64,000 bases of DNA, taken from positions 46,438,001 through 46,502,000 of the forward strand of contig OZ260661.1 of assembly GCA_965285935.1 (NCBI GenBank). Direction: 5' to 3'. This document shows positions 10,655-36,510 of this stretch, one piece after another (positions within the stretch are counted from its first letter, which is position 1; every line of letters begins with the position of its first letter). The DNA is from Ophelia neglecta (Eukaryota). The position numbers and the translations under genes were made by a program. The notes below the pieces were generated by a model. It was given only the letters and a program-made list of their open reading frames with translations, ran no database searches and was not told the DNA's origin.

Positions 10655-11833
10655 GCTGATATCCTTATTGTAAACCAGCATGTAGACTGGGAGGCAGCTA
10701 GCATATATAGTCAGCCGACTTCATCCCAGTAGCTTGAAGAGTGAGTGCCATACTGCTATCCCTAGGGCTGTCCCATACAGCCAGAGTCAGAGAATGTTAC
10801 CAAGGTGGTGCACATGGTGTCTGGAAAGGCTGTCATCCTATCTTACACAGCCCCAAAGGTTGTTCAGGACCAGCGACCCTCTATGGCTACTCTGACTGAG
10901 GCCTATCACAGACCTCAGAGCCCAGACAATGTTTTTAGCCTGGGCCCCAATCACTGTTTGAAAAAAAACAACAATAACTATAAAACTTGGATCACAAGGT
11001 ACAGCATGTATGTGTACAAAGACTTGTGATACATATTGCATATACCACATCAGACAAGTTTCAATGCTCGAAAAGAAACCAAGGCCATTACTACAAATGT
11101 TTTAGTCTTGCATGGATCACAGCAGATTGTATACATTATTTTTCATCTACCATTGAATCATTTTGGCACTGAAGCTGGCATTCACTAATTGGACTGTGAT
11201 AAAGATTTGAATGGTTTGTCACTCCTGTTGAACTGAAAGCAGTCTACCATGATTTCCCCTGGACTCAAAAGCAGACTTAATCTAAAAGGGATCATATAAT
11301 AAAACCTAGCTTTTTTTTTTGAAAATGAAATGCAAAATTAACTAACCATGGTCTTGAAGCTATTTGGCCGGAACCAATTTACTAATCTTCCTTTATGTTC
11401 TGGTGATTGGTGACTTTATTACATACCATATTGAAAAGTCTGGAGGCTGTACTGATAGGCACTTCTAGGCTCAATAAACAGCAGGGGAACTAATAATAAG
11501 ATCATACCAGTTTATTATTGTGCTACCATAGGCATCTCCACTTTCCAACTTCCAATGATCTTCAAATATTACATAAAGACAAGGGTAGGTCAATTGGCAA
11601 TAGTGGCGACATTCATTATAAATAAAACGCTTTCCCCCCGATGTAGTTTCTGCAGCCAGTCACCTTAGTAGGGTTCAAGGTTTCTAGTTGTAGATGACGT
11701 GACAGGACCCACTTACAGCACATATGTAAATCATGTCTGCCTCTCAAAAAATAAACACATACAGGCGAGCAATGTCCCTAGCTAAATGACTAATGTCTAT
11801 TTATGATATTAAAACATGAAAAAGGGCAAAGTT

Positions 11834-12330
11834 CAAATACAGACCATGGGGCAAAAATAGCATAGTGTAAAATACGGACCATGAGGCCAAACCAGCACTG
11901 TGTTAAATACTGACCATAGGGCCAAAACAGCATAGTATAAAACACAGACCATGAGGCCAAACCAGCACAGTGTAAAATACCGACCATGAGGCCAAACCAG
12001 CACAGTGTAAAATACCGACCATAGGGCCAAAACAGCATAGTATAAAACACAGACCATGAGGCCAAACCAGCACAGTGTAAAATACAGACCATGAGGCCAA
12101 ACCAGCACAGTGTAAAATACCGACGATAGGGCCAAAACAGCATAGTATAAAACACAGACCATGAGGCCAAACCAGCACAGTGTAAAATACAGACCATGAG
12201 GCCAAACCAGCACAGTGTAAAATACAGACCATGAGGCCAAACCAGCACAGTGTAAAATACAAACCATGAGGCCAAAAGAGCAAAGTGTAAAATACAGACC
12301 ATGAGGCCAAAACAGCATAGAGTAAAATGC
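11834..12330. repeat. 35-bp minisatellite, ~14 copies, with 105-bp higher-order structure
   Basis: Unit AAATACAGACCATGAGGCCAAACCAGCACAGTGTA. A variant unit (ATAGGGCCAAAACAGCATAGTATAAAACAC) recurs at about 11911, 12016 and 12121. It explains the three overlapping minus-strand ORFs. Confidence 0.95.
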
Positions 12331-15106
12331 AGAAATGACTACAAATGGTTTCCCAGCTTGTGTGGTGAGCATGCAGTGAACATTCAAGACAATATATTAT
12401 TAAAAGTGCTTTTAAATGAAACAAATATATGTTCACTGTGTTCAGCATATATCAGATCACAAGAATGATGTGTTTCCTTTAAAGTGTAGCTTTACATTAA
12501 ATGGTTTTACACTATGTTGTAGATATCTCATATCCTTATTACCATTGCCTTATTACATGCCATATTTTCAACTGTGTCTGAAAAATGGTTTCATTGGAAT
12601 ATGATACTTACCTCTAATAGTCATTAAGACCTTCTCAGATAAATTAGCAATTAGCAAATCTTATTATTGCTTACACAGTTTTGCGCATAAATACTGTTTC
12701 TCAGATGATGTTTCAATGAATAAACAAATATTGAAAAAATTAACTGCATTTGAGGAAAATCACCAAGGAAGTCATTAAAATAGGTTATTCTTTTCTGGCT
12801 ATGGATATTGCTCGTTGCACTGCATTTAAATCATTCAGCCAGTGTGTTTATATTTGCCAAATGGCTTTGATTCCAAACCGTTTCTTTCAGTTCAAACAAA
12901 TGACTATCTCCGCTTCAAGTTCAATGAAAACAACCTACTGCAGTGAAGAGAAACACATCTTTCTGTGAATCACTGTAGAACTTTTTGAAGGCTAGTGCTG
13001 TGGACATGTCAGCTTGAGGCTACTGTCATGGCAACTGCTTGAGTAGGGAAACTGGGTTAGACGGGCCACTTAATGAAGAGTTTTTTTATGAAGAAAAAAA
13101 ATAAATTGAGTTCAGAGTGAAGGAAGGCTTTCACTTGATAAGATTGTATAATTAATGACAAATCAACTACAACTTTCATTACAATGTTGATATCCTATTA
13201 TTTTCACGTTGTTTTTTTTGTTCACGTCTCTACCCCTGTGGATTGGAAATAACATTTGCCATTCTGACTGGTTATCTTATGATGTGATGCTTCTTAATTA
13301 GATTGTCTGAAAGCAGTCTATCTTCATGGAGTGGCAGAATCTGAAAAATGACCAAGCAAATATAATACAGACAATTCATACATTGTGGTAATTGACAGTG
13401 ACATTATAATCAGTTCATTCTAAGGGTGAAGCTGATTGGCTGCTTAGAGTGCATGTCCAATTGTACCTTGATTGAAATTTAGGGAAAAAAAACTAATCAA
13501 CAATGGACACCCAGGCACATTTTAATACAATTTGGCTAGGGATTTGAGGAATTAGTTAAGATACATGCATGAAATTGCAAGCCCTATTAGCAAGTTAATA
13601 TAACTTGGTAATTTCTGCTGAGATAAATAAAAAATTACTGAGTGTTTTTGATTGATAAACAATAGCAATAAAGCCATTTGAAAGCTTGTCGTTTTTGCAC
13701 ATTTATTGCCAATTTTGTCGCAGATAATTAGTGTAACAATCTACATGGGGAGAAACGGTGGCTAGTTTACAGCACACAGTGGAGTCTGTAATAGATTTAT
13801 TGTTTTGCCTAACTTTGTAGAAGCTTTTGGGCCACTTGTGGGATTTAGGATGCTAGATGAATAGGACAGCACATCAGGAGGATGCATTGCTAAATTTAAT
13901 TGCGAGAATCATTACTGCTGAATGAAAGATATAGAGATAGAACCAATTTCTCAGTTGCCAGTAATCAAGAGAGATGCTTCATTGGCTAAATTATATCATG
14001 GAATTTCTTGCAAGGGATGATAAATGCTCTGCTTAATTAAGCACACAGACTACTCTCTTTTGTTTGAAAGAACGTTTTACAAAGAAATGGCGAATCTCAC
14101 GCGTTTGTGAACACTTTGAATTATGATTTCCTTTGAAGGGTTAGGTCATAAAATTATCTTTGCACAGATACATTTTAGAACTGTTTTTCAGTCATCCAAC
14201 TACTGTCATAATTCTTTACTCAAGGCAGGACAATGTCCCCTGCTTGAGGTAGTTTTTCAACTCTTCAAAGTTCTCACAAGGTGTATGTAACACACCACTG
14301 GTCCGCAGATGTCTGCTGAACACAATATCATTACAAAGTACTGGTACATACACACTGAAACCCTTTCATACACATTCATGTATATTGTCAAGTGTATAAA
14401 GGTGTATTACCACCTTGATAATTCAAAATTGATCACTACCAAGTGATTCAAAGATGAAAATCAGCTTTATAAATGAACATTACTGAATAAAAGTGAATAG
14501 CCATAAAGCCATGTTTAGTTCCATCATTTTTGTCACAAAGTTTAACTGAAAGCTGCTTTCTAAGTTTGTGATACAAACCTAACCCACAAACCCTGAAACT
14601 GGACATTCAGCTAGAATGTTCTAGCTGGGCTGCCCAGTCCATTTGTACTAATGCCAAAAGATGCCTGTGCACACGAGATGGGCAGGGGAGTGACAAGGGC
14701 ACTCAACCATCATCTAGACAGCTTTAAAAACACCCAGACACAGACTTAATTTCATGACTCAGACATTTGATATGGCTGTCAAAATATTCACATTTAACTA
14801 ACTGGGCTAACCATGGTCATTTTGGGTCAGCCACATTGTGGCTGGCAAAGTTACTAAAAGCTAGATTCAAACCACCTAACAGGTGGTCATCTCAGTCTGT
14901 TTCATACACAAGTGCAAATTATTACCTTTCAAAGTTGATGCTTATGATTAAGATGGATTTTGCATAGACTGCCCTGATTGCTCAGTGTGAACAAGTTATG
15001 ACAGTACTGATGAATGGGGTGCCAATGAACAAAATAATGATGGTCATCCAGAGTTGGGTACTTTCTGTCATGGGTCAGATTTGATCCATTAAAACTGGTT
15101 TGACCC

Positions 15107-16484: not shown

Positions 16485-16883
16485 CAGTTGAACCAGATCA
16501 GGACTTTGTAACATGTGGGGACTGCCAAAGGGAATTCTTACTTAGTGACTTTGTAAAATATATACAACACAAAGTAAACCGGTGTAACAAGGAGAATGTG
16601 GAGCCTTTTGAAGAACCCGAGTTTGAGAATGAAGAAGATCCAGAAGGTGTTACTGCTGTGATATCAACCCAGAGGACGAGCATATCGGCACCCATACAAC
16701 AAGAGAAACTGTCCCCTAGATCTGCCTTGCCATCCGTCTCACGAGATGGTGACCAGCCTCAGCCGGAAGAGGTGGAGGATGCCATCCAGGACAAACACAG
16801 CCTAGATAAAAAACTTGGAAATGGCCAACTTAACACCAGGCACAGGGTGCAGCTGGTAGACACTGGATCCAACACTGAGACAG
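16485..16883 (+). CDS. BCL11: BCL11 internal coding exon carrying the N-terminal CCHC zinc finger (equivalent of vertebrate exon 2)
   Basis: Acceptor ttttatttctttgcag|CAG and donor CAG|GTGAGT at 16883/16884; 399 nt, phase 1-1. Encodes VEPDQDFVTCGDCQREFLLSDFVKYIQHKVNRC (C-x2-C...H-x4-C, like BCL11A [28 protein letters not shown]). Splices in frame to 28951 (G+AA=Glu, giving ...SNTET-EPQNFVC). Confidence 0.92.
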
Positions 16884-28950: not shown

Positions 28951-31397
28951 AACCCCAAAACTTTGTATGCAGCAACTGCAAATCCCAGTTTTCTTCACCT
29001 TGGTTCCTGTTGCAACATGTACAGAATCATCATGGCATCCAAATATATGAAGAAAAATCACCCGAAAGAAAGCCTTCGCCATCAATTCACAGCCGACAAA
29101 ATGAAATTGGTCGAAAGGACCAGGGACTCCTGCCTGAACCTAAAGAAGAACCATCTATTGATCGACGAGGTAGCTCTTCAACTTCATCATCAACAGTTGT
29201 GCATTCCAATGCCAAGATCAGTATGGCCAGGTCGCCTTCAACCCAAATGTCACCATGTGGATCAACCAGCATTTTCCCACATCCAACACCACAATTTCCA
29301 CTACCCACCTCAAGGCAGCCAATGACAGCGGCCTATGGGTCAGGACTCCCCTCGCCATTTCCCCGTCCACCTCATCTCAGCCAAGATGCAATCAACCGGC
29401 TTATGTCTGACTTTAACCATCACCCCAGTGGTCCATTTGGAAATAGGATGCCCTACTCTTTACCTATAGATCCAATGATCCCAGGCTTTCCTATCCACCC
29501 TGCAAATGAGGGTTTATCAAATGAATCAGTTATGGCAATATATTCTCGCCGCTTGAGAGAACTTGCCAATCCACAACCAAACCCGAGCAGTCCCCCACTT
29601 GGTAGGAAACACAATGTAAACATGTTCTCCTCAAGAGAGAAGGAAAGGAGAAACAGTGAGACCAATGGTTCAACCTTTAGCAGCAATACCCCAAGCAAAT
29701 CCCATTCAACAGAGGACTTGGCAAAAAGTTTTCTGCCTCCTAAGCTCAAACAATGTGAGTACTGTAACAAGCGTTTTAGATTCCAAAGTAATCTAATAGT
29801 CCATCGTAGGTCTCATACAGGCCAGAAACCATACAAGTGCCCTGTATGTCAACATGCTTGCACCCAGGCTTCAAAACTGAAGAGGCACATGAAGATTCAT
29901 ACCAAGAGTCTATTTGGTATTGGACTTTCAGGGCTATCACCCAATAAGGAGGATAGTATGGTATCTGCCAACAGTACCCCAGACAAGTATTCTAAACAAG
30001 AGGACGAACTTTTATCTGCAGATATAGAGGAGAGTGAGGAAGATGAAGAAGAACTTGATGAGGAAGAATTAGAAGCCAGAGAAAGGGAGGCAGAACAAGA
30101 GATAAACATCCTGAAGCAGCAGGTCAGAAGAGTTCAGCTAGCAAGACAAGGGTCAGAGAAAGCAAATGACATTGATAGTTCTTCTGTAAAAGATGGAGAT
30201 GAACCTACTGATCTCAGCAGGCGTTCATTGGACTCTGAAAATGGACACACACCTGTACAGACACCCAATAGCAAGTCCGGAGCAGAGACTCCCACTGACT
30301 TATCCATGTCCAGGGCTGCCTTGATCAATGAAGTTATGCAGGACTCTCCTTTGGTAGACATGCCTATGGTCAAGAAAGCATACCTTCAGGCCATGGAAGA
30401 AAGCAAGCATGGACAAAGAGGTTCTGTAAGTCCAACATCTGATGATCTTGAGAAAAAGAGTATAACTGAGAATGGACTACAGAACAGCCCTAGGGGATCA
30501 TGTAGGAGTACACCATCTTCCAAACAAGAAAGCCCATCACCTAGTCACCATCCCATGGACTACAGCCCTGGGAGAGAAGAAGTAGGGGAACCTGTGACAA
30601 AGAGAGTAAAGAGTGAAACCCCTGAGCGGCAGCAGCCAATGGGTCGACACCCCTCTTTCCCTACCAATTTGGATCTGTATCACAGGGAACTCTACCCACC
30701 TCCCTTCCCATGGTTTGCTAGTAGAGGGCCACAAGATTTCATGGGACTACCTAGAAATGAAACCTTACTTCCCTATGTACATAATCGCTTCCAAAATGGT
30801 GACAATCTTTTAAAACCTCCATTGGACGGTCACAAGCCAAGAATGACCCATGGAGGGCTTCATGGCTTGCCAAGGCAGGTGGTGACATCTGTAACATCCC
30901 CAAGTGGTTCACCCCCTGGCGGCATCCCTGGCGTTCCTATGCGACGGCGTAATGATACCTGTGAATTCTGCGGGAAGATCTTCAAGAACTGCAGCAACCT
31001 GACTGTGCATCGGAGATCACACACCGGTGAGAAACCTTACAAATGCGACCTTTGCAGCTATGCATGTGCTCAGTCATCAAAACTGACTCGTCACATGAAA
31101 ACTCATGGCCGCCTAGGAAAAGATGTCTACCGATGTAAGTTCTGCAGTATGCCCTTCAGTGTCCCTTCAACGCTGGAGAAACACATGCGAAAGTGTGTTG
31201 AGAACCAGCAAAGTCGACCATTGCCTTCTAGTATGACAAACACAGATACGACTGGTTCGACGAGCAGTGTATCATCCAATGTGTCGGTTTCATCTCCAGT
31301 GATGCAGTCTCCAGTGGAATCTATGCCTGGCATGCAGTCCCCTGATGATATGCCAGAAATGCAGTCACCAGATTCTCTACCGGTAATGCACTCCTAG
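28951..31397 (+). CDS. BCL11: BCL11-family zinc-finger transcription factor, large terminal coding exon (ZF1, ZF2-3, acidic tract, ZF4-6, stop)
   Basis: Acceptor tttcttttgctttctttcag|AA at 28950/28951, phase 1. Translation EPQNFVCSNCKSQFSSPWFLLQHVQNHHGIQIY resembles the BCL11A ZF1 region. CEYCNKRFRFQSNLIVHRRSHTGQKPYKCPVCQHACTQASKLKRHMKIH and DTCEFCGKIFKNCSNLTVHRRSHTGEKPYKCDLCSYACAQSSKLTRHMKTHG...CKFCSMPFSVPSTLEKHMRKC are near-identical to BCL11A/B ZF2-3 and ZF4-6. It also has YSRRLRELA and an acidic E/D tract. TAG stop at 31395-31397. Confidence 0.96.
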
Positions 31398-34300
31398 ACT
31401 GACTTGATGCAAAGAAATGCACATCCTGTTGCTGAGTATCTTGCAACTCTTCTGCAGTTCCACGGAACATTGGCCGACATTAGCAAACTTAGTTGCAGAT
31501 AATACCTGGCACCTGCCTCCAGCATCTTCTACACAATGCTGTGTTGGCCATATTAGACAAAAACACTACATTAAAGGACAGACTTTTGTTGTTGCTGTTA
31601 TTGGAGATCTCCTCGGTGGCAATGACTGGGGTATAGACCCCCTCACCTGGATTGTATTCCTTGGTTGTTGTGTTGAGCAAAGGCCGCCTGTAGAGCATGC
31701 CAGTTACACTGAATCATCACCCAGTGCTGTGGCGCCAGCAGTCAAAGGAGTGAATGAATGCTGTTACTTGTTTAGGTGACACCTAAAAGACATGGCAGAA
31801 GAAGCAGCCCAACACTTTGGCCAAGCAGCACAACCCAGATGATGTTAACCATGAAATGGATCCTACATAAGTTATAAACTTTACCCGGTGATTATGTATT
31901 GTTAGTTGGTGTTCTAGTTTTCCAATGTTATCTTGCCCTGAACTTATTTACCATAAAAATATTGATTTACATTTAAGATATTGATATTCCCATTTCAAAT
32001 GTATATTGGTTACACATATTTCTACCTGAAATAAGTTGTAAATTCGATTTGCATTTAAACCTAGATGTACCTGATTTCAGGTATTTTTAAATATGATTCT
32101 AACTTGATTGGATTATGGCTTTAGTAAATTTTCACAGAAGGCTCATGCTATAATCTTCAAATCTTATAGTAGGTGCATAATCATAGGAAATAAGGGTTTA
32201 GGGGTTTTTGTATTTGATATGATATTCACTTGCAGTCAAATTGGCAGACAAATGTATGTATTGATGCATGTATTTGTGAAATACTTGCAGGTACAAACAA
32301 GCCTTTAGAGACTGATATATCAGCATCCAAACTTTCCCATTTTTGTAGCATATGATGACGTACTACTGTCTCAAGCAATACATTTAGTGTGATAATGTCG
32401 AATCATAATGATTAACTAAGGGTACCAGGGTTAACTAAATATTGCACATACACATAAGAATAACTATCTAGATTTTTGTAACAATGAGGTGTCAGTCTAC
32501 TTTTTCTAGATGTAAACCTGTTAGTGGCTATTTCTGACTTTGTCAGCAGTGCAACTACAACATTATTATATTCAGCTTGTGTGTTTACTATCGCTTTATC
32601 CAAACAGGTATAAACTGCCACCAAAGCCAATATAATATTATCCCTTGCTATACACTAATAACCCATTTATAGTGACTGAAATTATCAGTACATTTCACAT
32701 ATTTGATGATACTAGTTATTCTTCACATGTTTGATTGATACAGACCATTTGGTGCCTCTTGCGTTGTATTATTGCTTTAAAAGCAGATATTTTTGAGGAA
32801 GGATTATTATAAGCTTCCCAGAAGCAGTGAGAATTCAATTTACATACATATAATCTAAGACTGTTTTTACATTAGAGGTATTTGCTGTATGATATGAATG
32901 CTTATAGATCATGGTACTATCCACAAAACAATTACTGAATGCTGTTTGTTTGCCCATTTGCCATGATAAGAGAGCGAACCACATATTGGAAGTTGCAATG
33001 ATGAGGTAATACAACATTGGCTGTTTAAAACAGTGGAAGTATTATTGCTTATAGCTGGATCCCTGGTCAGTTTGTTATAGTAAGACTCTGTGAGAGAATC
33101 TGTTCAAAACCATAATAATTCTGTGCTGTGTAACAGCTGTATCTTGTATATACTGTCGTATAAAAATATGTGTATATTTCTTGTGTAAGTACATTGAAAG
33201 AGTGTCTTCATCTGGAATAATGAGACTAAAACTAAACTTGAAAATGTGAAGCTTTGTCTCGGACAATGCACATTCAGAGAGATGTCTTCAAACATTCTTT
33301 TATAATTGGTGGAATATTAAGTATGTTATAGAGATAATGCACATGTCCTTGTGACAGTATATGCCAGGACTTTTGAGTTGGATTCAATGTTTCCAAATCT
33401 GGTTGAAGGTGCCATATTTCATTATGCATATGCATAAGTTGAATCCTGTCATTCAGCATTATATATGCACATGTTTGAAATTGATAGCTTGCATCCCTCC
33501 CTCCATACCTTGTGGCATATTGAAAGTTGTCGGCATATTCAAGCCATTTGGTTGTTAATAGAATTTTCTTTCTGGTAAAATCTGATGTAAATAGTTTGGT
33601 CTCATCCAGCAATTGTGAAAGAAAAAGGGTCATGTTAACTGTAGTAATTATGTCTTAACAGTAGTGTTTACCTCTAATGAATGAAATATGTTTTTAACTG
33701 TATATTAATGCTTTGCTACTTTAGTGCCATATTCTTGCTTTGTAGGTGCTTTTATACATCAGTAATTCAAGGTGTGTACCTTTTTCACCATATTGATATT
33801 AGTTTCCAAGTCTTGTATGACATTTTGTGTTCAATATGACTGAACTTTTAAAATGAATATCTTCATTAACATTTAGCCATTCTTGCAAATTCTGAACCAC
33901 AATTGTTCCAAAGGAGTGAATTGTGATAATTGTATGGCAATGTGCATGTATATATTTTCTTTGTTATGTCTTTACTTGTCCAAATTATATTTTATCTGCT
34001 TAAACTGATTTTACACATTTTGATTTTAAACAGAGTATTTCTCTTCCCTTTCGTATATCAAGTAGAACTTTACTTTAATTGGCAAATTGCAGTTGTTAAT
34101 TAAGTATTTTTTTCCTAACTAGATGTAAGCATATTCCCTAGACAGTTTGCTCACTTTTATTCTTCTTTTCATAGTCCATCTTTGAACAAGTAAATTGTAA
34201 TATGCATATGTGTAGTCAGATTTTGTCCCCATGAATGTAAAACAATGTTTGGTTCAATCGGATGCTATGCCCTACATTGCCACAAAAAGTTCACTATATC

Positions 34301-36510
34301 AGATAATTAATAGTGACTGCATATTAATTAATTTGGGCAACTTCTGTTTTTATTTTAAAGAAAATAAAATTGCAGTAGCCCAGTCCATAAAATCTTGCCA
34401 CATACATTATTTTCTGTGTAACTTAGTAATGACAAATTATAACATTATTTTGGCTCACTAGCAGCTTTTATCTTTGTGCCATAGACTAAGTAATATTTTG
34501 AATATCAATGGTACATCTTTTTGCTTGCTTGTCCCTTTTCATGATTATGCAAATTGGTGGGAATGCAAAAAAAACTGTACATTTGAAGATCACACAGCAT
34601 ATATGACTATGGCAGAATCTGTCCAAAATGTGTTTGTTTTATGATTTTAGGAAAAGGGCATTAAATGTTTATAAGAATTGTGTAATATGTTAACTTGAAA
34701 TTTCTCATTTACATTTTATACCTACCAGTACACTGACGCTCCAACAGGCATTTTCAGCAGCTTTCCTTGAATCTTTTGGACATTATTATTATAATCAGTC
34801 TTGCTGAAATTTGTTCTCTAAATTTGTTAGTGTATTAGATGAGCATGTTGATATTAATATAAATGTATAGCTATTAATACATTGACCTAATATACATATA
34901 CATGTAGATTTCCTAAATTGGAAATACTAGAAGTGTGACATATAGCACTGTGATATTCATTAGTACAAACATTGACTTGATATTAGCATCTCATTTGCTC
35001 TCAATAGGGCACTCTTCATCTTTGTCAATTGCTTGCATATACAAATTGCTTACAGCTCTTAAGAGCCTATAGCTTTTGATTTTCGGAAAGTAAAAGCTCA
35101 TAAAATGAGCTCCATCTCTTGGAGATTGACCACTGTAATGATAGAACCTCCAAGAAGACACAGAAACATCAGCATTGGTAGGGAATCAAAGATTCCTTAT
35201 TTTGAATAGACATTAATTCTGAAAGTATAAAATCATGGGAAGGCTTATAATATCTGATAACCTGAATTGTACCTGAGTCAATTGTGTATGAATTTGAGAA
35301 TATACTACAGTAATACTGTACCCTGCAGTCTAAACAGTGGGTTCTGTACAGAAATGTGCAATATGGGGACAGCTGTCTACCTTGCACACAAAACACAATA
35401 GTTTTTTTTACCTAGATCCACTGCTAGGCTAATTTATTAACTGATCACCGGTGAGGGATAACACTTTTCAATCCACTATGTACCTAAAGTGCTTTAAAAT
35501 TTAAGATATAGTCACCTCCTGCACTTTCCTCTTTCAAAAACATTTTATATTCATATCAGATAGTCCTCTATATATTCTACTGAGCATGTCATTATAGCCC
35601 CTTGTAAAACATGTGTGTTCGAGCGCTAATGTGCTTCTACCTGTTTTCTCTATCAGCAGTTTATCCAACAGTTGTTACAATTTGCTCATATTGTTTAACT
35701 TTGAACATATTTGTGTGGGTGTACAAACTGTATACATAATTTGAGAGCATACTATGAAGTTATGAAAAATTGATGCCTAAAATCTTGCAAAAATTATTAT
35801 GTAACATTTTACAAAAAGTTTGTCAAGTGATGCCAATTGTTGGTATTGGCAGGTCAATGATATATCACCGGACAAAAAATAAGAACACAACATTGCATTC
35901 CTAAATCTAATCTCATAGTCCCACTGACTTATTGGATGGCATAATAATAATAGTAATAATAATTTGTGTTGACATGTGATGTTGTTTCTATATACATATT
36001 ACTTCCTGGTATATTGGCTTGCATCCTCTGATGATAACAAGGCAAGGTGAAATGTTTTGCTTTAGCACCATAGAAGTGTGTGTATTTGAACAGAATTTTT
36101 TCATCAAATTTTAACAAATTGTTAGTAATAAAATGAAAGCACTGTGTAGCTGGCAGTTATTTTTGTGGAACATTGTTAAATGTAGCTAGTGTCCATTCAA
36201 TAGAATAAATAGAAAGACAAAATATAGTCTTAATTACCAACCGCAAGTCATACCAGTACTAACCAGAGGGAGAGAGACAAAGAAAGAGATGATTAATTAC
36301 TGCCTTTACCTGATATTGCTTTTGTGCTTGATGTATCAATGTGTGTCATTATTTATTTGCAGTATTTTGTACATGTAATGTACTCGTACTATAATACTAA
36401 AGCAGTTTAGCAGGATGGGGAACAAGTGGCATTGTATTTAAAATGTTGATGTATGTACTACAGAATGTACCAAGTACACTTTCAGTCAATAAACCTAATC
36501 AGTTGGTTCT
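31398..36510 (+). other. Putative long 3'UTR of BCL11
   Basis: T/GT-rich sequence after the stop with no obvious repeats. It carries miRNA seed matches and Pumilio elements and ends near an AATAAA cluster (36127, 36204, 36488). The extent is inferred; an earlier AATAAA lies at 34363. Confidence 0.5.
36488..36493 (+). terminator. Candidate polyadenylation signal (AATAAA)
   Basis: AATAAA preceded by several TGTA (CFIm-type) motifs (tgtatgtactacagaatgtac) and followed by a GT/T-rich tract (gttggttctaatctgtggtcgctttgtttttatt). Confidence 0.4.

What the first reader, a model, noticed from the sequence alone, without database searches (positions are those of the whole stretch)
33409..34483. Three perfect 8-mer miR-183/miR-263a seed sites in the BCL11 3'UTR
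Seen: GTGCCATA occurs at 33409-33416, 33724-33731 and 34476-34483 within ~1.1 kb downstream of the stop, plus a 6-mer TGCCAT at 32959. Elsewhere in the window I noticed only one other GTGCCATA (~10745), by eye. A rough base-composition estimate gives about 0.05 expected copies per 5 kb, without correcting for testing several seeds. Established: GTGCCAT+A is the 8-mer target of the seed AUGGCAC shared by miR-183/miR-263a/miR-228, an ancient bilaterian family expressed in sensory organs. Inference: this invertebrate BCL11 mRNA may be repressed in sensory neurons by the miR-183 family, a circuit I do not know to be described.
Basis: partly seen in the sequence, partly recalled or inferred. Interest (0 to 1): 0.72.

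Follow-up and report, generated by a model that had tools for sequence, protein, structure and literature searches.

The report
miR-183 target sites in annelid BCL11
The long tail of a worm's BCL11 gene carries three exact matches to the sensory-organ microRNA miR-183, and a clam's BCL11 carries six, so this ancient microRNA likely dampens BCL11 in both groups, an ordinary kind of control on a target not found in the papers searched.

Summary
Confirmed: GTGCCATA lies at 33409, 33724 and 34476, 2.0-3.1 kb behind the stop of a single-copy BCL11 gene that groups with annelid proteins. About 0.07 copies are expected (random genome pieces; 0 of 40 homeobox-gene tails hold more than one); corrected for ~40 seeds P is 0.002-0.012. 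The genome holds two mir-263/183 hairpins with this seed; one arm equals sequenced oyster miR-183. A relative's contigs conserve blocks of the tail and end just after an AATAAA (36488), a weak hint of a ~5.1-kb 3'UTR. Independent replication: a bivalve BCL11 tail has six such 8-mers (top word of 4552; none in 23 kb of same-contig controls), and an unplaced lineage conserves a miR-96/miR-183 site module in 4 of 4 loci. Against: site 1 is polymorphic, site-level conservation in the relative could not be read, the window sites have no 3' pairing, insects and other annelids show no excess, and a fish signal is weak. Likely a real canonical target; the sensory-neuron part is untested. No earlier scan finding or searched paper reports this pair.

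The parts
16485..16883 (+). BCL11 internal exon encoding the CCHC zinc finger (tandem acceptor, start 16485 or 16488)
   Evidence: Pfam CCHC_BCL-11A E 1.2e-13; splice sites read from sequence
28951..31397 (+). Coding part of the last BCL11 exon: C2H2 finger pair and C-terminal finger triplet, TAG at 31395-31397
   Evidence: ORF, Pfam, named homologues are BCL11/chronophage, single copy in the genome, acceptor
31398..36505 (+). Inferred ~5.1-kb 3'UTR
   Evidence: AT-rich; contigs of relative run X1 conserve about ten blocks across it, one contig ends at 36500, no cover beyond 36516 (RNA status guessed, one study, weak hint)
32959..32964 (+). 6-mer seed match, at chance level
   Evidence: 4 observed vs 2.3 expected 6-mers in the tail
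33409..33416 (+). 8-mer site 1 for miR-183 seed; polymorphic at 33410
   Evidence: T>A in X2 and X4 but not X3; lies in a part that the X1 contig spans but does not align
33724..33731 (+). 8-mer site 2; the preceding A (33723) extends pairing to nt 9
   Evidence: inside X1-conserved block 33622-33939; no variant in X2-X4
34476..34483 (+). 8-mer site 3
   Evidence: falls in the gap between two X1 contigs, so not compared
34363..34368 (+). Internal AATAAA between sites 2 and 3; a shorter isoform ending here would lack site 3
   Evidence: use untested
36488..36493 (+). Likely distal poly(A) signal, with TGTA words upstream and a G/T-rich stretch downstream
   Evidence: X1 record 4 aligns to its last base at 36500

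Best explanation
The three GTGCCATA words behind this annelid-type BCL11 gene are likely canonical seed sites through which the genome's own miR-183-type microRNAs would lower BCL11 mRNA and protein in cells that make them. Shown: the sites, their excess over background, two hairpin loci with the matching seed, and a stronger excess of the same word behind a bivalve BCL11. Inferred: that the mRNA extends over all sites, that Argonaute-miR-183 binds by seed-only pairing and triggers deadenylation and decay (standard mechanism, recalled), and that sites act additively since they are 315-752 nt apart. Most weakly inferred: that the cells are ciliated sensory cells, where BCL11 would be kept low relative to central neurons. 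Sites appear to turn over in position while the target is kept, and site 1 is segregating.
For: Excess in this tail: 3 vs 0.064-0.127 expected, 0 of 40 homeobox tails with more than 1, all sense-strand. Cognate genes: three mir-263-family hairpins in G000, two with seed AUGGCAC and one miR-96-type 570 nt from one of them; the first 22 nt of the L001 arm equal oyster miR-183 sequenced at 2160 and 908 reads (PMC4778033 supplement 2 row 50). Replication with the word fixed in advance: bivalve locus L020 (tree) has 5 copies in 5.2 kb, expected 0.09, P 5e-8 (1.2e-6 after 24 clusters), rank 1 of 4552 8-mers, 6 in 6.7 kb vs 0 in 23 kb of same-contig controls (P 1.3e-4); flanks differ, so the shared unit is the 8-mer; one site has a 10-nt helix to nt 13-22 of the microRNA (P 0.004 per site). 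The nearest metagenome locus L026 has one 8-mer at +97 in 1.6 kb. L072/L075/L077/L078 keep a miR-96-type and a miR-183-type 7-mer 33 nt apart in 4 of 4 loci, 14 of 14 seed columns invariant vs 18 of 26 between (Fisher P 0.02), where 47 of 669 7-mers are identical in all four. The tail behaves like a 3'UTR in a relative.
Against: Site 1 carries the only variant in 501 nt, and it breaks pairing to nt 7; with two sites the seed-corrected P rises to 0.08-0.26. Conservation of site 2 in X1 could not be read (laid no X1 contig), site 1 is in an unaligned part, site 3 uncovered. No window site has 3' pairing beyond chance, and sites 2 and 3 are predicted less accessible (0.22, 0.15) than the tail's median (0.38). 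Of 24 other BCL11 clusters, only L020 and L026 have 8-mers; without L020 and L067, 7-mer-or-better sites are 7 vs 6.3 expected. Four other annelid-clade loci show scattered 7-mers that do not align. The 7-locus insect cluster has none in its representative. The fish signal (L067) drops to P 0.02-0.03 against same-contig controls, not significant after correction.
Confidence: 0.68

Rival explanations
1. Chance in this species: a long AT-rich tail happened to collect two fixed copies and one segregating copy of a word that matches a known seed; the bivalve cluster is real but a separate, lineage-specific gain.
For: Site 1 polymorphic; two-site corrected P 0.08-0.26; about 1 in 100-500 genes would show such a triple for some seed and the scan reads many genes; other annelid-clade loci lack the excess.
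Against: It needs the same word to be top-ranked independently behind the same gene in a bivalve and conserved in a third lineage; site 2 lies in a conserved block.
Confidence: 0.2
2. The sites are real but lie beyond the poly(A) site of the main mRNA, so only a minor long isoform is regulated.
For: ATTAAA at 31570 and AATAAA at 34363 precede some or all sites; no RNA holder of this species was available; X1 contigs break around site 3.
Against: X1 contigs conserve blocks through to 36500, and the distal contig has the highest contig depth, though contig depth cannot rank parts.
Confidence: 0.07
3. The word is bound by something else: an RNA-binding protein, a DNA-binding factor, or another microRNA with an overlapping seed.
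For: In fish L067 the enriched unit is TGCCAT(A) without the G that pairs to nt 8; the conserved module in L072-L078 holds three GTGCC words with different ends.
Against: In the window and L020 the word is exactly seed 2-8 plus A and only on the sense strand; one L020 site also pairs with the microRNA's 3' half.
Confidence: 0.05

Closest known systems
Drosophila hid 3'UTR with four miR-263a/b sites (PMC2885982; passages of sections 7, 10, 15 seen)
   Same: Same microRNA family, several seed sites in one 3'UTR; there reporter repression and mRNA loss depended on the seeds.
   Different: Target is a pro-apoptotic gene, validated by experiment; here a zinc-finger transcription factor in an annelid, predicted only.
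Vertebrate miR-183/96/182 cluster and its targets (PMC4551935; passages seen)
   Same: Same family, clustered genes with near-identical seeds, needed for sensory-organ maturation; this genome also has a miR-183-type and a miR-96-type hairpin 570 nt apart.
   Different: The review's main text has 0 occurrences of BCL11. In a cochlea study Bcl11b is a predicted target of miR-124 and miR-381, not miR-183 (PMC3589350, passages).
Canonical 8mer microRNA target site (definition recalled)
   Same: Match to nt 2-8 plus A opposite nt 1, AU-rich flanks (0.67-0.72), multiple copies in a long UTR.
   Different: Site-level conservation not shown; no 3' supplementary pairing; sites far from both UTR ends.

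Membership tests
Canonical 8mer miRNA target site (miR-183 seed) | Perfect match to nt 2-8 of the mature microRNA followed by A | tested here: met
   mature 5' end taken from the identical sequenced oyster miR-183, not from this species
Canonical 8mer miRNA target site (miR-183 seed) | Cognate microRNA gene present in the same genome | tested here: met
   Two hairpins with the seed (Rfam mir-263 60.6 and 49.2 bits, cut-off 51.3) plus one miR-96-type (52.9)
Canonical 8mer miRNA target site (miR-183 seed) | Site lies in the 3'UTR of the expressed mRNA | tested here: inconclusive
   Relative's contigs (RNA only guessed, one study) conserve blocks to 36500, just past AATAAA; no reads
Canonical 8mer miRNA target site (miR-183 seed) | Count above background | tested here: met
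   weakens to non-significant after seed correction if site 1 is discounted
Canonical 8mer miRNA target site (miR-183 seed) | Site conserved at orthologous positions above flanks | tested here: inconclusive
   Site 2 in a conserved block but letters unread; site 1 unaligned and polymorphic; site 3 uncovered. Target-level recurrence in a bivalve
Canonical 8mer miRNA target site (miR-183 seed) | Seed-dependent repression and co-expression | not testable with these tools
   Needs reporter, knock-down and in situ data
Extended-pairing (3'-supplementary or decay-trigger) site | Long helix to the microRNA 3' half | tested here: not met
   Window sites: 3-4 nt, chance level; only bivalve L020 site +4403 has 10 nt
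BCL11/chronophage transcription factors | N-terminal CCHC finger, C2H2 pair and C-terminal C2H2 triplet | tested here: met
miR-183-family sensory-organ circuit | microRNA expressed in ciliated sensory cells of this animal | not testable with these tools
   Reported for flies, worms and vertebrates (PMC2885982 section 15 passage); no expression data here

The most novel reading that the evidence does not exclude
miR-183 repression of BCL11 is an ancient circuit dating at least to the annelid-mollusc ancestor, perhaps to the bilaterian ancestor (weak echo behind a fish Bcl11b), kept by site turnover rather than fixed positions and lost in insects; it keeps a central-neuron identity factor low in sensory cells.
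Probability: 0.3. Interest if true: 0.7.

Novelty: new member of a known kind. Interest (0 to 1): 0.48.

Why it matters
The miR-183/263/228 family marks sensory organs across bilaterians, but whether it has any shared ancient target is open; its validated targets in flies and vertebrates differ. A neuronal transcription factor targeted in both annelids and molluscs would be a testable candidate for such a conserved target, and Bcl11b is reported as needed in outer hair cells (cited in PMC3589350), where the family is expressed. If only local, it is one more ordinary microRNA target.

Tried and rejected
No RNA holder was listed for this species; not used as evidence. Reading site 2 in relative run X1 failed: the short stretch laid no X1 contig, so site-level conservation stays open. 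Prokaryote genome and viral collections gave no BCL11 locus. The IQ-TREE run did not finish; FastTree was used (65 rows, with P0004 dropped as a near-duplicate of L026 and L072, L015 added). The L072-L082 lineage could not be named: 11 homologues at E<=1e-40, none with a usable name, long branch in the tree. Repeat or transposon origin of the sites rejected. 3' supplementary pairing at the window sites rejected. Fish Bcl11b signal first looked strong (P 7e-6, self-trained Markov) but fell to 0.02-0.03 against same-contig controls and is treated as weak. Alignment of annelid-clade tails L012/L024/L033 was uninformative (39-40% identity). 31 of 80 loci had under 900 nt after the stop and were left out of the pooled test; 239 of 319 matching stretches were not returned. 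The annelid microRNA expression paper I recalled was not held. Literature searches for the pair: miR-183+BCL11A (59 papers, 20 listed), miR-183+Bcl11b (38, 30 listed), chronophage+miR-263 (0), CG9650+miR-263 (0), Mir183+Bcl11 (4), miR-96+Bcl11b+hair cell (1), bcl11+Platynereis (4); none of the listed titles or abstract openings reports it; subscription papers, most supplements and target-prediction databases were not searched. Oyster predicted miR-183 targets (13 rows) do not include BCL11 by name.

Full report
Observation. The 8-mer GTGCCATA is at 33409, 33724 and 34476, with a fourth copy at 10745 and none on the minus strand. The 6-mer at 32959 is present. The gene upstream is BCL11: a CCHC-finger exon near 16485-16883 and a large last exon from 28951 with the stop at 31395-31397; named homologues are BCL11 or chronophage proteins and the gene is single-copy in the assembly. 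In a FastTree of 65 proteins it joins unnamed P0001 (100) and locus L026 (94) in a 14-row clade with the annelid Ridgeia (95), so the animal is likely an annelid. The sites are 2012, 2327 and 3079 nt after the stop.

Is it more than chance? Four copies in 64 kb are ordinary (20 of 100 shuffles). Three in the 5113 nt behind the stop are not: expected 0.127 by a Markov-2 model trained on the tail (P 3.1e-4), 0.064 from 5 copies in 397 kb of background strands (48 of 50 tiles had 0, 2 had 1), and 0.075 from the tails of 40 of the 63 homeobox matches in the same genome (37 had 0, 3 had 1; 3 antisense copies). It is the most extreme of 16384 A-ending 8-mers in this tail. With an assumed 40 candidate seeds the corrected P is 0.002-0.012. 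A scan over many genes will meet such a triple now and then, so the window alone is suggestive, not decisive. The sites are not part of a repeat.

Is it a 3'UTR? No run on record as RNA was listed for the species. Run X1, another organism, RNA only by guess, has contigs that match the coding exon and about ten non-coding blocks behind it at under 90% identity. One contig aligns to its last base at 36500, 7 nt after an AATAAA at 36488-36493, and nothing is laid beyond 36516. Contigs cannot prove an end and this is one study, so it is a weak hint of a ~5.1-kb UTR. Site 2 lies in the block 33622-33939 (46 other letters and 25 gap letters, positions mostly not shown); site 1 lies in a part the contig spans but does not align; site 3 lies between two contigs. 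Blocks cover about 26% of the tail. A second attempt to read site 2 laid no X1 contig. An AATAAA at 34363 could give an isoform without site 3.

A result against. In three runs of one same-species sample, possibly the source of this assembly, the only variant in 33330-33830 is 33410 T>A, in 2 of 3 runs' contigs. It removes pairing to nt 7 at site 1. With two sites only, the seed-corrected P is 0.08-0.26. Site 2 has no variant there; site 3 was not read.

The microRNA. The genome holds three mir-263-family hairpins: two with seed AUGGCAC about 8 Mb apart, and one miR-96-type 570 nt from the second. The first 22 nt of the L001 5' arm equal oyster miR-183 as sequenced (PMC4778033, supplement 2 row 50; only supplement rows seen), which fixes the seed register for a lophotrochozoan, not for this species. 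Using this arm, the window sites have AU-rich flanks (0.67-0.72), no 3' pairing beyond chance, and predicted accessibility of 0.47, 0.22 and 0.15 against a tail median of 0.38.

Other animals. A metagenome scan returned 80 of 319 BCL11-type stretches; 49 had at least 900 nt after the stop and fell into 24 clusters. Pooled over one representative per cluster: 6 8-mers vs 0.88 expected, 18 sites of 7-mer or better vs 7.4, 7 antisense. The excess is concentrated. L020, a heterodont bivalve by the tree, has 5 8-mers in 5.2 kb (expected 0.09, P 5e-8; rank 1 of 4552 8-mers), a sixth at +6476, and none in 23 kb of upstream and antisense sequence of the same contig (P 1.3e-4). Its flanks are unrelated, and the site at +4403 also pairs for 10 nt with nt 13-22 of the microRNA (P 0.004 per site, 1 of 20 sites tested). 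L026, nearest to the window, has one 8-mer at +97 in 1.6 kb. An unplaced long-branch group keeps a miR-96-type and a miR-183-type 7-mer 33 nt apart in 4 of 4 loci long enough to show it, with 14 of 14 seed columns invariant against 18 of 26 between them (P 0.02); L081 and L082 are shorter and lack it. Teleost Bcl11b locus L067 has five TGCCATA and one GTGCCAT, but only P 0.02-0.03 against its own contig; two other fish loci with 1.6 kb have no 7-mer site. Without L020 and L067 the remainder is at chance, 7 vs 6.3. The insect cluster has none in its representative, and four other annelid-clade loci have scattered, unaligned 7-mers.

Mechanism. Most likely (0.68) the mRNA is a canonical seed-only target: miR-183-loaded Argonaute binds two or three well-separated sites and lowers mRNA and protein by the usual route (recalled, not tested). 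The family is expressed in ciliated sensory organs of vertebrates, flies and nematodes (PMC2885982, passage of section 15), and octopus bcl11 marks several central neuron types (PMC9712504, passages). From these I infer, without data from this animal, that the microRNA keeps BCL11 low in sensory cells. Rivals: chance in this species (0.20), sites confined to a minor long isoform (0.07), another binding factor (0.05).

Comparison and novelty. It works like the four miR-263a/b sites in fly hid. As a member of 'canonical 8mer target' it meets seed match, cognate gene and excess; UTR location and conservation are inconclusive; repression is untested. Seven literature searches for the pair gave no listed paper reporting it (listings and abstract openings only); a family review has no BCL11 in its main text and a cochlea paper assigns Bcl11b to miR-124 and miR-381. 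Target-prediction databases and most supplements were not searched and may list vertebrate Bcl11b. The scan's own notes hold no BCL11-miR-183 finding. Verdict: new member of a known kind; interest 0.48, rising to 0.7 if the annelid-bivalve recurrence proves to be an ancestral circuit (probability 0.3).

Noticed in passing
L020:15024-15049 (about +4385 to +4410 after the stop): Bivalve BCL11 site with a perfect 10-nt helix to miR-183 nt 13-22 at offset +4, the layout of an extended-pairing or microRNA-decay trigger site (P 0.004 per site, 1 of 20 tested).
   Followed up: partly
window 34948-34955, 35356-35363, 33145-33152, 32752-32757: Single words matching a K-box/miR-2 8-mer, a miR-92-family 8-mer, a Pumilio element and part of a miR-124 site (names recalled) all fall in blocks conserved in run X1, which cover about 26% of the tail.
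   Followed up: partly
L072, L075, L077, L078, about +760 to +1500 after the stop: Conserved 40-nt module of three GTGCC words (miR-96-type, GTGCCTA, miR-183-type) behind a fast-evolving BCL11-type gene of an unplaced lineage.
   Followed up: partly
L105 and L112 (G000:C1 near 60.72 and 60.78 Mb): AGGGTAA-containing 8-mers are over-represented behind two Hox genes of this genome (Scr-like and Antp-like homeodomains), echoing earlier scan notes on shifted-seed miR-10 sites in annelid Hox tails.
   Followed up: no
L001, L002 (G000:C1 near 98.72 and 107.03 Mb): Two miR-183-type hairpins share nt 2-23 of the 5' arm but differ at nt 1 (A vs G); the second might start one base later and gain a shifted seed, which site 2 would also match.
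   Followed up: no
control loci L103-L142: The palindrome TAGGCCTA is over-represented behind at least 8 of 40 homeobox genes; probably a genome-wide repeat word.
   Followed up: no
window 11790-12451: Tandem repeat giving spurious ORFs on the minus strand.
   Followed up: no
L101:8001-8279: A C2H2-like stretch (38% to the BCL11 fingers) in a contig titled Candidatus Dependentiae.
   Followed up: no
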